Shown piece after piece: positions 58,073 through 61,187 of a stretch of DNA of 64,000 bases. Position 1 is the first letter of the stretch. Each line of letters begins with the position of its first letter. A program made the translations under genes and the position numbers. Below the pieces are notes generated by a model that saw only the letters and a program-made list of their open reading frames with translations, had not been told where the DNA came from and made no database searches. The stretch is from Rhizophagus irregularis (Eukaryota), in contig NC_089432.1 in NCBI RefSeq assembly GCF_026210795.1, positions 2,108,001 through 2,172,000 on the forward strand. Direction: 5' to 3'.

Positions 58073-61000
58073 TTATAAGTTATGTGTTTTAGAAAATGTA
58101 ATAGCAGGTTCATAATCACTATAAGCAGCTAATTTCATATAATATTTAGCTTTTTCTATATCTTTTGTACAACCAATACCATTATAATACATATTTCCAA
58201 CGTTATACATTGCTACTTTATGACCATCTTCAGCAGCTTTTTCGAAATATTTAAGAGCTTCTGATACATTCTTTTCAACACCTTTACCATTATATAAACA
58301 ATCTCCATATCTTACTTTTGCATCAGGTAATTCATCTGCTTCATCATCAGCTACCTCTTTAAATAATTCGGCAACAATTTTATCTTTATTTGGAGGACTC
58401 TTAACCAATCCTCCTGAAATATAAAATGCTTTGTAATATTTTGCTTTGATTTGATTACTACGGGTTGTTATACTTGTTTTATCCAAGTCTGCATAGGTTT
58501 CAAAACATTCATATGCAGTTTTTACATCTCCAGTAAGTTTACCATATTTATACATCTTATGTTGTTTTGCTGCATCAGCGAGTGTCATGTATTTTAATGA
58601 TGACAAATTAATAGGAGGGGCATATGAATCTTGATCAATGTTGTATGTTCGTTTTGGAGTAGACTTTAGTGCGGAGGGTTTTTTGCTTAAGTTTGAACTA
58701 CTAGAACCTGATGAATGATCTTTGACGCAATTTCTAAGAACTTCAAACATTTTTGTAATTTTTGGCCTAAAATCTGGGTCCTGATCAACGGCTAAAAAAA
58801 ATATGTAAAAAAAAAGAAATTAATTAAGTATAATAAATTATATTTTAAATATTTTACATACCTTCAATTTCTAATTGTTTGAATTCCTCTGGCATTTGAT
58901 TATTCTCAGAAAATGGTTCTCTATATAATTTATTACGTACTTTATCAGCTATTTCCTGAATATCATTAATATCTTGATACGGAGTTTTTTCTTCAGCAAT
59001 TTCCCAAAGTAAAATTCCAAAACTATAAACCTCACATTTATAATCATATTTATTTGGAAGCTTTTCTAACAATTCAGGTGCACAATAACGAGCTCGTTCT
59101 AAATTTTTGCTTTTAGCAACTGAGAAACGATTTAATTTAAAATTTGCAAGTTTTGCTGTCTTATCAAATGTAATTAATATATTCTCAGCCCTAATATCAC
59201 GATGAAGAATCTAAAAAGAAAAAAAAAAGAATTAAATAAAAAGTTTCGTTTAGTTAAAAGGTTGGTTATAAAAATTACCTCAACAGTTCTTAAAAAATTT
59301 AATCCACGGGCAATATCAAGAGACATACGTAATTTTAATCTAAGGTCGAATAGTTTTTTAAAATGTGTATAAAATTCACGTAAATTACCATATTCGGCCC
59401 ATTCAGTTACCAAATACCACTTATTTTCATCACGAGTAAATCCATAATATTTTATGATATTTTGACAATCATGAAGTTCTTTAAGAATTGTAACTTGGTT
59501 TTGTATAATCTTTTCGTCCTTTTTCCCAAGGATAATCTTAAACGCGAATTCTTCATAATTTTTTATGTTATACCATTTAATCACACGTCCATTTTTACGT
59601 GGTTTATCCTGAATATAATCAGATAATTTTAGTGGATGTACCTGAAAGATACTATCAATTTTTGTTTGATAGTTCATAAAATTTTCCATTGTATTATTCA
59701 TTGCATTAACCATCACAACTGTTGAAAAAAACTGATTACTTAAGTTTTTGTCAATCTCTTTTGTATCATCACCAATATCTTTTACGTCAGCACTAATACC
59801 AACCATCATTTCTTGTAAATACTATAATTATTAAATTATAACATAATTAATTTTATATTCACATAAATGTATAATAAAACTCAATTTCTTTTAATCTTAC
59901 TTTAAATAAATCATCTTGATCCGCTTTTAATTGTTCAAACTCATCAGTAATTTTAATTTCAATAGAAAAAGATAATACGTTAACACAATCATCCAATTCT
60001 TTACATAATTCTTTAAAAGTTTTTTCAATACTTTTAGCTTTAATATATTTTATTAAAGATTTCATTTGAGAAATTTCTAATATAAATTTTTTAATTCGTG
60101 TTATAATATCAAATAAATCTTGTAAATGTATATAATTTATACTGTTAAAAAAATCTTTTCTATCCTCTCTTTCTCCTCTAAGATCTTGTATGGCTGATTC
60201 TACAATACGAACTCGTTTTTGTAATATTTTACAAGTTCGTTTGTTATATTCAGCAGCTTCTACTAATTCGATGATTTCGTTATAAGAATTAACAATATCA
60301 TTAATTAAAGGAAGAAATTTTGCAAATGGAACACTATAATTTAAATTTTCAGCGAAATCATCTTTTTTATTCTTTTTTGATTCAACATCTCCCATTCCTA
60401 CTTCATACAACTCTGTGCTTTTCCATCCAAAAGCATCTTCTAATTCGCCTAAAATGTCACCCAAATACGTTAATTCTGTTACATGCGATGCTGGGGTTCT
60501 AACATTCATACGAGAGAGGGCAGAAAACACTATATAAGCACGAGACTCATGCTGGATAAGATCATCAAAAGATGGTTTATCCAATGCGATCCATGTATGA
60601 ATATCATTTGCATGAAGACGGTCCATGGCATACGTTGTCTGCATATACCAAATTTCCATGAGCCAATATAACTCTTTCATTCGGAAGTCTTCTACACCAT
60701 CTAAATCATCATCAAGAGAAATCAGCTCATTCATCTCTGCAGAGGCTTTAAGATTACATATCTGCCAATCTAAATTTCTTATTAATTGTTCATAATTTTC
60801 TTTTGTCATAGATATCGTAGGGGCAATAACGAAGTGCAATGCTCCTTGAACATCAGAGGGAAATCGAAGCTTCATTTTATGAGTGTAAAATAAAGCCAAT
60901 CCTTCAGGAAGAGATGTTCCTTGAGGAATGAAGTAGCAGTGAATATTTTCATTACTGAGACTTTTATTAGGGGTATTGTGAGGACGTCTCAAAGGCACAA

Positions 61001-61187
61001 AACAGGAGACTCCCTTTGCATTTTTATCATTTATATTATAGTATATTAGATATCCGGGACGTGTATTGTCAAGCTTATAATCTAACCTACAAATTTCTTG
61101 ATGCATAGCATTGGGACGGTGAACATCCCAAGAAACTTGTGTATAAGTTGAACCTTTTTCCGGTTCTTCTATCGTAATCAGCTCCAT
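58073..61187 (-). CDS. Tse2-like ART domain + helical linker + MLKL-like four-helix bundle + pseudokinase + Sel1 repeats; exons 61187-59901, 59821-59279, 59210-58862, 58791-58073, about 965 aa
   Basis: Three GT-AG introns give an open 2898-nt frame. Kinase has FAFK, HRDIRAENIL, NFK in place of DFG, YCAPE, EVYSFG. C-terminal Sel1 units. PFAKFLPLI..AEYNKRTC..L..RV matches an MLKL N-terminal-like domain. Confidence 0.85.

What the first reader, a model, noticed from the sequence alone, without database searches (positions are those of the whole stretch)
58073..61187. Tse2-like ADP-ribosyltransferase module fused to an MLKL-like four-helix-bundle/pseudokinase/Sel1 protein
Seen: one open spliced frame of about 965 aa. 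Residues about 15-145 read VHR(24)..KGVS(61)C..YFIPQGTSLPEGLAL..H(118)FVIAP..MT..Y..L. From recall this is the pattern of the Tse2-like ART family (Pfam ADPRTs_Tse2), including an R-S-H triad like the one Pseudomonas T6SS toxin Tse2 needs. It is followed by an MLKL-type bundle, a pseudokinase and Sel1 repeats. Inference: a single-chain sensor (Sel1) / switch (pseudokinase) / effector cell-death or defence protein. It may carry both NAD-dependent and membrane-damaging outputs, or the ART may be an integrated decoy or inhibitory cap. I know of no description of this architecture.
Basis: partly seen in the sequence, partly recalled or inferred. Interest (0 to 1): 0.92.

Follow-up and report, generated by a model that had tools for sequence, protein, structure and literature searches.

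The report
Toxin-like enzyme fused onto fungal MLKL
A mycorrhizal fungus has one intact, spliced gene that joins a domain predicted to fold like the bacterial toxin Tse2 to the front of an MLKL-like cell-death protein, which likely blocks pore formation and would make an NAD-using enzyme the output instead, though the MLKL half may be a dispensable passenger.

Summary
Observation confirmed. The minus-strand gene has four coding exons and gives 965 aa, identical to a public Rhizophagus irregularis model. The ART part and the MLKL-like bundle share one 429-codon exon, so the fusion is no splicing artefact.

Residues 13-143 match Pfam ADPRTs_Tse2 above its cut-off, and the predicted model's best structural match is Tse2 (Z 8.7). 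R24/S61/H118 are kept together in 38 of 48 homologues. The C-terminal part's best structural match is mouse MLKL, and it is a pseudokinase (DFG reads NFK). Spliced contigs from 2 of 4 runs bridge M265.

It was welded to the old start codon (M265) of a known Glomeromycotina MLKL-pseudokinase-Sel1 gene. Relatives carry SAM-like or Panacea-antitoxin tails instead.

Against a finely tuned machine: the full fusion was found only in R. irregularis. The sister paralogue kept the ART module and lost the MLKL part, and three isolate models are truncated there.

Best reading (0.4): switch-gated ART effector with a capped bundle. Passenger fusion 0.3. No activity is shown. New variant of a known kind.

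The parts
58073..61187 (-). Whole coding span of the fused gene, 4 exons, 965 aa
   Evidence: identical to public model P0003
59901..61187 (-). Exon 1 (aa 1-429): ART domain, helical domain, old MLKL start and four-helix bundle in one open frame
60759..61151 (-). Tse2-like ADP-ribosyltransferase fold, aa 13-143; R24 at 61116-61118, S61 at 61005-61007, H118 at 60834-60836
   Evidence: Pfam PF18648 above cut-off; model pLDDT 83.6; best structural match Tse2 5ako, Z 8.7-8.8, rmsd 3.5, 106 aligned; R-S-H in 38 of 48
60423..60713 (-). Conserved acidic linker (aa 159-168) and unnamed all-helical domain (aa 166-255) that travel with the ART domain across the family
   Evidence: no distinctive fold match, best Z 5.6
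60393..60401 (-). Fusion joint: V263-G264, at the position of the splice donor in a relative, followed by M265, the start codon of the ancestral stand-alone MLKL-like gene
   Evidence: bridged by contigs of 2 of 4 runs
59901..60332 (-). MLKL-like four-helix bundle, aa 286-429
   Evidence: Pfam MLKL_N; helices 288-310, 316-338, 349-373, 387-405; best Foldseek match mouse MLKL 4btf, E 6.7e-15 over 469 columns
58727..59638 (-). Pseudokinase, aa 491-748 (spans exons 2-4): beta-3 Lys K524 and HRD kept, no glycine-rich loop, DFG replaced by N633-F634-K635 (59136-59144)
58112..58327 (-). Sel1 repeats, about aa 882-953, preceded by further helical repeats from aa 797
   Evidence: the end of the second repeat is my estimate
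59822..59900 (-). Intron 1 (79 nt)
   Evidence: skipped in contigs of 4 of 4 runs
59211..59278 (-). Intron 2 (68 nt)
   Evidence: frame, GT-AG ends and public models; not seen as a joint
58792..58861 (-). Intron 3 (70 nt)
   Evidence: skipped in contigs of 4 of 4 runs
57947..58057 (-). Intron in the 3' UTR (111 nt); cover continues to about 57527
   Evidence: skipped in contigs of 4 of 4 runs

Best explanation
The gene encodes a 965-aa fusion whose N-terminal Tse2-fold module is likely an NAD+-using ADP-ribosyltransferase or NADase and likely the output, while the MLKL-like bundle, pseudokinase and Sel1 repeats behind it would act as a signal-triggered switch and clustering scaffold rather than a pore. 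Shown by my calls: the fusion in one exon; the joint at the old MLKL start codon; the predicted Tse2 fold; intact conserved pocket residues; pseudokinase motifs; spliced contigs across the joint; relatives with other tails. Inferred steps: (1) The ART module is an enzyme, from fold and conservation only. (2) The 264 residues in front mask the bundle's first helix and stop membrane killing but allow oligomer formation, by analogy with N-tagged human MLKL. (3) Sel1 binding or phosphorylation of the pseudokinase clusters the chain and switches the ART on. (4) The conserved acidic linker and helical domain hold the ART off in cis (speculative). (5) The role is intracellular defence or non-self recognition; the target is unknown.
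For: Fold: Tse2 is the top match in all three PDB fold searches with the model of aa 1-264. It is the only chain with Z >= 8 of 48,161. Pocket: R24 in 40, S61 in 46 and H118 in 46 of 48 homologues, down to about 20-30% identity. Tse2's predicted pocket is R14, T79, S80, H122 (preprint 10.64898/2026.06.15.732508, passages), and the aligned ranges 13-143 / 3-150 fit R24=R14. Constraint: among four full-length isolate proteins the ART domain varies at 2 of 145 sites. Capping: N-terminal 3xMyc prevents death by MLKL yet allows phosphorylation and partial oligomerisation (PMC13180255, passages); HeLo-type killing depends on an N-terminal helix (PMC10197012, passages). Parallel tails: SAM-like domains follow the same module in P0033, P0038, P0020, P0029 and, after a canonical intron, in locus L001 (all SAM scores are below Pfam cut-offs). 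A Panacea antitoxin domain above cut-off follows it in 3 of 38 distant hits scanned, which fits a toxic enzyme that needs control. Age: the joint predates the R. irregularis / R. diaphanus split, yet the whole frame is open in 4 distinct full-length isolate proteins.
Against: The full fusion is confined to one R. irregularis cluster: 1 hit among 519 long candidates and 1 of 86 MLKL-kinase relatives with the ART domain. The sister paralogue (P0008, P0117, P0027) kept the ART module and only a remnant of the MLKL leader. Three isolate models (P0015, P0203, P0007) stop within or before the MLKL part, and the R. diaphanus kinase orthologue model P0149 lacks exon 1 altogether; these may be annotation errors, as I could not see the DNA. 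The bundle varies at 9 of 144 sites against 2 of 145 in the ART domain (post hoc, uncorrected Fisher p = 0.035). Many family members are annotated as stand-alone proteins of 250-290 aa, so clustering is not evidently required. Long N-terminal extensions sit before the bundle in 29 of 79 relatives (my count; some are probably merged models), so such fusions arise readily in these genomes. The position matching Tse2 T79 is hydrophobic (V60). Contig cover ends at 61163-61185, at the M1 codon, so translation from M1, needed for R24, is not shown.
Confidence: 0.4

Rival explanations
1. Passenger fusion: an MLKL-like gene landed at the end of the ART exon by rearrangement. The ART module goes on working as in its stand-alone relatives, and the MLKL-pseudokinase-Sel1 tail is tolerated, adds little and is lost repeatedly.
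For: The joint is exactly at the old start codon, next to the old donor position. The sister paralogue lost the tail. Truncated isolate models exist. Variation is higher in the bundle. A decayed MLKL copy with an inverted piece lies next door. Kinase and Sel1 genes are highly expanded, repetitive families in this species (PMC8647823, passages).
Against: About 700 codons of tail stay open in four distinct isolate proteins, with only 8 of 258 kinase sites and 4 of 175 Sel1-region sites variable. The kinase part is 94.6% identical to its R. diaphanus orthologue. The joint is older than that species split.
Confidence: 0.3
2. Capped executioner or two products: the ART module is mainly a safety cap on a still lethal MLKL-like bundle, which is released by cleavage in the disordered joint or made separately from M265, so that pore and enzyme outputs both exist.
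For: M265 and the whole leader are retained. The joint, aa 256-282, is predicted disordered. The bundle is 67-72% identical to 8 stand-alone paralogues, no more diverged than the kinase.
Against: No protease site or downstream transcript start is shown. Contigs run through M265 from upstream in 2 of 4 runs. No Glomeromycotina MLKL-like bundle was found shown to kill in the passages I read.
Confidence: 0.17
3. Integrated decoy or sensor: the ART module binds a microbial effector, inhibitor or ADP-ribose ligand and signals to the MLKL-like part, as integrated domains do in plant NLRs (recalled).
For: A domain from a conflict-type family is inserted into a putative immune executioner. Varied N-terminal additions occur in this MLKL family.
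Against: The pocket residues are intact and the domain is the least variable enzyme-like part, whereas decoys often decay or diversify (recalled). The bundle's N-terminus is blocked.
Confidence: 0.08
4. The full fusion protein is rarely made: transcripts start at or after M1, or two overlapping transcripts cover the ART and MLKL halves.
For: Contigs end at 61163-61185 in four studies, with no DNA run laid for comparison. Contigs break at 60417-60446, and the bridge over M265 reaches only 51 nt upstream. Contigs cannot prove one transcript.
Against: There is one open frame with no stop or intergenic remnant between the halves. Residues 1-28 are invariant among isolates and conserved in paralogues. 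Contigs tile the gene with 27-30 nt overlaps across the ART exon. Several public annotations give the same 960-965 aa model.
Confidence: 0.05

Closest known systems
Pseudomonas aeruginosa T6SS toxin Tse2 / Pfam ADPRTs_Tse2 (PF18648; PDB 5ako)
   Same: Predicted fold of aa 13-143 (Z 8.7, rmsd 3.5, 106 aligned, 21% identity); Pfam score above cut-off; Arg, Ser and His conserved at fitting positions.
   Different: Eukaryotic and intron-containing, with no separate Tsi2-like immunity gene seen. It carries an extra conserved helical domain and a fused MLKL-like tail. The residue before the Ser is hydrophobic, not Thr. It is not injected by a T6SS. Activity is untested.
Glomeromycotina MLKL-like / Sel1 proteins (PMC8778642, passages: MLKL family homologues 'exclusively in Glomeromycotina' with Sel1 repeats)
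   Same: aa 265-965 is a typical member: 65-75% identical per domain to most stand-alone paralogues of about 700 aa, several of which start at the residue matching M265. It has the same N-F-x in place of DFG (Asn in 80 of 85).
   Different: It has a 264-aa ART module in front, seen in 1 of 86 relatives.
Animal MLKL (and plant MLKL-like proteins, recalled)
   Same: Four-helix bundle, brace helices and pseudokinase in the same order; mouse MLKL 4btf is the top Foldseek match.
   Different: C-terminal Sel1 repeats; blocked N-terminus; no known RIPK3-like activator; 20% identity; orthology not tested.
Clustering-activated NAD enzymes such as tankyrase (SAM-PARP), SARM1 (SAM-TIR) and TIR-NLRs (all recalled, not tested)
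   Same: An NAD-using domain joined to an oligomerising module; relatives of this ART module carry SAM-like tails.
   Different: A different enzyme family and domain order; working likeness only, no homology claimed.
Fungal HeLo / HELL / Goodbye effector domains (10.1101/2022.03.16.484565 and PMC10197012, passages)
   Same: MLKL-related bundle in fungal cell-death proteins; some are extended at the N-terminus or paired with another effector domain.
   Different: Those sit on NLRs or amyloid motifs, not on a pseudokinase; no ART partner appears in the passages read.

Membership tests
Tse2-like ART (PF18648) | Profile score above the curated cut-off | tested here: met
   32.7 bits (exon 1) and 31.2 bits (whole protein) against 26.6, over profile positions 71-127 of 137 only
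Tse2-like ART (PF18648) | Tse2 fold over the whole domain | tested here: met
   Predicted model; 5ako top in Foldseek (E 2.2e-3, prob 0.99) and VIA-align (Z 8.7-8.8; next 5.6, in the other domain). The tool notes that Z near 8 is modest.
Tse2-like ART (PF18648) | Pocket residues equivalent to Tse2 R14, T79, S80, H122 | tested here: inconclusive
   R24, S61 and H118 are conserved (38 of 48) and fit the aligned ranges, but no residue-level superposition was returned; the T79 position is V60
Tse2-like ART (PF18648) | NAD-dependent activity or toxicity | not testable with these tools
   Needs an assay. Reviews call Tse2 an NAD-dependent ADP-ribosyltransferase; the primary paper was not held.
MLKL-like proteins | Four-helix bundle plus brace ahead of a kinase fold | tested here: met
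   Pfam MLKL_N above cut-off; model helices; 4btf top hit
MLKL-like proteins | Pseudokinase (loss of catalytic motifs) | tested here: met
   DFG replaced by NFK and no glycine-rich loop; K524 and HRD are kept, so residual activity is not excluded
MLKL-like proteins | Bundle at the free N-terminus | tested here: not met
   264 residues precede M265 in one frame; so it is filed as a fusion derivative, not a canonical MLKL
MLKL-like proteins | Oligomerisation and membrane permeabilisation on activation | not testable with these tools
   Needs a cell or liposome assay
Bacterial toxin-antitoxin or T6SS effector-immunity pair | Adjacent cognate immunity gene and prokaryotic host | tested here: not met
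   Spliced fungal gene. The flanks hold a decayed MLKL copy and unrelated ORFs. Pattern scans of prokaryote and viral contigs gave 0 of 13 and 0 of 54 confirmed relatives, at low sensitivity.

The most novel reading that the evidence does not exclude
A fungal MLKL switch has been rewired from pore formation to enzyme control: an MLKL-gated ADP-ribosyltransferase. It would be one face of an undescribed eukaryotic family of self-restrained Tse2-like toxins (ART plus acidic-linker and helical domain) that early-diverging fungi, other microbial eukaryotes and perhaps giant viruses plug into different control modules (SAM, MLKL-pseudokinase-Sel1, Panacea antitoxin) for intracellular defence.
Probability: 0.3. 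Interest if true: 0.85.

Novelty: new variant of a known kind. Interest (0 to 1): 0.58.

Why it matters
Arbuscular mycorrhizal fungi are coenocytic, carry endobacteria and viruses, and have very large kinase/Sel1 families of unknown function (in part recalled; PMC8647823 passages for the expansions). A gene that ties an MLKL-like switch to a toxin-fold NAD enzyme offers a direct handle. It can be expressed in yeast and taken apart by point mutation to ask whether these MLKL-like proteins kill, what activates them, and whether a necroptosis-type scaffold can drive an enzyme. The stand-alone ART-plus-helical family is also a eukaryotic route to the substrate of Tse2-type enzymes, which I recall as unresolved. 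If the fusion is a passenger, the value drops to the description of that family.

Tried and rejected
1. Whole-genome work was not possible, as no genome is held for this window. The paralogue's DNA, the R. diaphanus locus and dN/dS could not be examined.
2. Sequence-profile searches of the PDB gave nothing useful: 0 hits with A2, 1 chance-level hit with A3, 0 hits with aa 265-429. The Tse2 and MLKL links rest on Pfam and predicted folds.
3. Complex prediction of aa 1-260 with aa 265-750 gave 'no answer' (score 0.00, alignments not used). It is not counted either way.
4. The full-length model has pLDDT under 50 over most of aa 1-200, because its alignment had only four near-identical rows there. 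It says nothing on domain packing. A mixed alignment (A4) was misaligned and dropped.
5. The helical domain has no distinctive fold match (best Z 5.6) and was not folded alone.
6. ESM Atlas: no usable hit for aa 1-258. For relative P0024 it gave unnamed, mostly bacterial clusters at 0.87-0.92, a lead only.
7. No run is on record as RNA. I treat the four laid runs as transcript-derived because they skip GT-AG introns exactly. Contig depths were not used. A closer view of the 5' end and of the branch at 60417 was not obtained, so both stay open.
8. Earlier scan findings: nothing by sequence, place or the MLKL words; five unrelated PARP notes by the ART words.
9. PMC4725247 had no passage on N-terminal tags. 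Robb 2016 was not held. My recalled Tse2 His number was not confirmed; the preprint gives H122.
10. Rejected: that the fusion is a gene-prediction merge across an intron (it lies inside one exon); that it is bacterial contamination (spliced, in several assemblies); that it is widespread in Glomeromycotina.
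Full report
1. What is in the sequence. The region is AT-rich eukaryotic DNA. On the minus strand, four exons (61187-59901, 59821-59279, 59210-58862, 58791-58073) joined at GT-AG introns give 965 aa. This is identical to the public Rhizophagus irregularis protein P0003. Pfam finds ADPRTs_Tse2, MLKL_N, kinase and Sel1, all above their cut-offs. 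The ART and MLKL_N matches lie in the same stop-free frame of 444 codons, so the fusion does not depend on any predicted splice. The cluster has 6 members: four distinct full-length proteins of 960-965 aa and two 727-728 aa models that miss the last exon.

2. Expression. Twenty of 24 listed runs hold the stretch; none is on record as RNA. I laid 4 runs from 4 studies. All four skip intron 1, intron 3 and a 111-nt 3' UTR intron exactly. Intron 2 was not listed as a joint, and the tool skipped a repeat there. In 2 of 4 runs a single spliced contig (59468-60446) crosses M265 (60395) with 51 nt on the upstream side; it overlaps by 30 nt the next contig (from 60417), which overlaps the 5'-most one. 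In the other two runs the listed contigs stop short of M265 (133 records were not shown). The 5'-most contigs end at 61163-61185, at or just inside the M1 codon. Contigs show neither starts nor single transcripts, so use of M1 remains open. In its favour, residues 1-28 are invariant among isolates and conserved in paralogues.

3. The N-terminal module. AlphaFold2 on a 24-row alignment gave a confident model of aa 1-264 (pLDDT 83.6, pTM 0.84): a beta-rich domain to aa 145 and a helical domain at aa 166-255. Tse2 (5ako) is the best match by Foldseek (E 2.2e-3) and by VIA-align (Z 8.7, rmsd 3.5, 106 aligned, model 13-143 on chain 3-150). It is the only chain with Z >= 8 among 48,161. A 2026 preprint lists Tse2's predicted pocket as R14, T79, S80, H122 (passages). 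The ranges fit R24=R14, but no residue-level alignment was returned, and the Thr position here is V60. In a 48-row alignment reaching about 20-30% identity, R24, S61 and H118 occur in 40, 46 and 46 rows, and all three together in 38 (47 homologues chosen for covering the module, from about 110 found). The helical domain has no clear fold match and begins with a conserved acidic stretch (D161 in 43, D167 in 35 of 48). A review notes that Tsi2 blocks Tse2 through an acidic patch and occludes its active site (PMC6099711, passages). That prompts, but does not test, the idea of a built-in restraint.

4. The module is a family of its own. A search with aa 1-264 found 32 proteins among 220 candidates of 145-462 aa, many of them 250-290 aa models, from Rhizophagus, Glomus, Funneliformis, Gigaspora, Diversispora, Dentiscutata, Racocetra and Jimgerdemannia. 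The exhaustive search found 88, adding Ambispora, Entrophospora, two chytrids and unnamed records. One giant-virus model (Sylvanvirus) matches by structure at E 1e-4. The tails vary. SAM-like tails occur in P0033, P0038, P0020, P0029 and in locus L001, where a 68-nt GT-AG intron follows the module and leads in frame to a SAM-like exon (Pfam SAM scores are below cut-off, and L001 has stops). Panacea/SocA tails above cut-off occur in 3 of 38 distant hits scanned. Pattern scans of prokaryote and viral contigs found no relatives (0 of 13, 0 of 54), at low sensitivity.

5. The C-terminal part. aa 265-965 belongs to a large Glomeromycotina family: 86 hits at E <= 1e-20 among 3692 candidates, already noted in print as MLKL homologues with Sel1 repeats (PMC8778642, passages). 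The model's top Foldseek match is full-length mouse MLKL (E 6.7e-15, 469 columns). The kinase keeps K524 and HRD but lacks the glycine loop and has NFK for DFG; Asn stands there in 80 of 85 relatives and Asp in 3. Several close stand-alone paralogues begin at the residue matching M265 with the same leader.

6. How the fusion arose. The ART module ends at the position where the relative L001 has its splice donor. In the window two codons (V263, G264; absent in some isolates) are followed directly by the old MLKL start codon. The fused ART groups with P0008 (R. irregularis) and P0117 (R. diaphanus) at 100/99 support in a 41-row tree. Both, and P0027, end in a remnant of the MLKL leader: of 117 ART-family proteins scanned with a leader profile they are the only ones besides the 7 fusion alleles with E under 0.1 (0.0012, 0.0049, 0.055; next 0.95). 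So the joint likely predates that duplication and the species split, and the paralogue later lost the MLKL part. Accession numbers and contig lengths place paralogue and fusion (or its kinase orthologue P0149, 93% identical) a few genes apart in both species (inferred). P0149's model lacks exon 1, so I cannot say whether R. diaphanus keeps the fusion.

7. Evidence against a finely tuned machine. The full fusion is 1 hit among 519 long candidates (weak evidence by the tool's own note) and 1 of 86 MLKL relatives. Three isolate models are truncated in or before the MLKL part. Variable sites among four full-length alleles are: ART 2 of 145, helical domain 3 of 113, bundle 9 of 144, kinase 8 of 258, Sel1 region 4 of 175 (ART against bundle p = 0.035, post hoc). 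Extensions over 150 aa precede the bundle in 29 of 79 relatives (my count). In the 15 relatives scanned, 10 of them with such extensions, the extra parts were mostly further kinase domains, two sub-threshold MACPF matches and one likely merged PAN2 model. A decayed tandem copy of the MLKL gene lies just downstream.

8. Mechanism. In human MLKL an N-terminal 3xMyc tag prevents death but allows phosphorylation and partial oligomerisation (PMC13180255, passages), and fungal HeLo-type domains rely on an N-terminal helix (PMC10197012, passages). With 264 residues in front, the bundle is unlikely to form pores in the full-length chain. The part under tightest constraint, and kept whenever the gene breaks up, is the ART module. 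I therefore commit to this reading (0.4): an ART or NADase output that the MLKL-like bundle, pseudokinase and Sel1 repeats gate by clustering, paralleling the SAM-tailed relatives. Enzyme activity, gating, sensing and a defence role are all inferred. Rivals: passenger fusion (0.3), capped or separately made executioner (0.17), decoy (0.08), fusion protein rarely made (0.05).

9. Novelty. My searches of the held library found no description of this architecture or locus: MLKL + Rhizophagus; Tse2 + ADP-ribosyltransferase + fungi; MLKL / Glomeromycot / pseudokinase terms (20 of 332 listed); ADPRTs_Tse2 / PF18648 / Tse2-like; five locus and accession tags; R. irregularis + Sel1 + kinase. Tse2-like proteins are mentioned once for skin fungi without study (PMC13448219, passage). 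I saw passages only of PMC8778642, 10.1101/2022.03.16.484565, PMC6099711, PMC10281587, PMC10197012, PMC13448219, PMC13180255, PMC7955679, PMC8647823 and 10.64898/2026.06.15.732508, and no supplements; genome-paper supplements may list this domain combination, and most subscription papers are outside the library. Both halves are known kinds. The joining, and the ART-plus-helical family with exchangeable tails, appear undescribed. Verdict: real, new variant of a known kind, lineage-restricted, easily testable; interest 0.58.

Noticed in passing
window 56594-57567 (-) and 56295-56574 (+): Decayed tandem copy of the MLKL-like gene (74-80% DNA identity, stops and frameshifts), starting at its own ATG with the same leader; part of its kinase exon is inverted. 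The fused gene's 3' UTR cover reaches its start.
   Followed up: partly
window 60417-60890: In all four runs a contig starts at 60417 and ends at 60887-60890, which suggests a second transcribed sequence sharing this stretch exactly. No second copy is in the window. Unexplained.
   Followed up: partly
window 61185: One run has a loose end resembling a template-switch oligo (recalled) at the last base of the M1 codon: either a very short 5' UTR or strand invasion.
   Followed up: no
window 61087-61308 (-): An out-of-frame upstream ORF overlaps the start of the gene; one run has a contig at 61374-61867 just upstream.
   Followed up: no
window 14229-17048 plus 17583-18176 (+), and 40521-45565 (-): Two long Sel1-repeat arrays, each followed by a kinase-like region, plus further kinase and Sel1 fragments: a cluster of the expanded Sel1/kinase families.
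   Followed up: no
window 62775-63221 (-): 148-codon Gly/Ala-rich ORF upstream of the gene with no Pfam match.
   Followed up: no
window 54371-54820 (+): 149-codon ORF with a hydrophobic, signal-peptide-like start and no Pfam match.
   Followed up: no
L001 1-950: Metagenome relative: ART-module exon, 68-nt intron, SAM-like exon, with in-frame stops in both exons. Several public models of close relatives appear to read into this intron and so may be under-annotated ART-SAM genes.
   Followed up: partly
proteins P0084, P0086, P0114: Distant ART-plus-helical homologues from unnamed records fused to a SocA/Panacea antitoxin domain above Pfam's cut-off: possible single-chain toxin-antitoxin proteins.
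   Followed up: partly
proteins P0125, P0137: MLKL-pseudokinase relatives with a weak fungal MACPF-like match in a long N-terminal extension.
   Followed up: no
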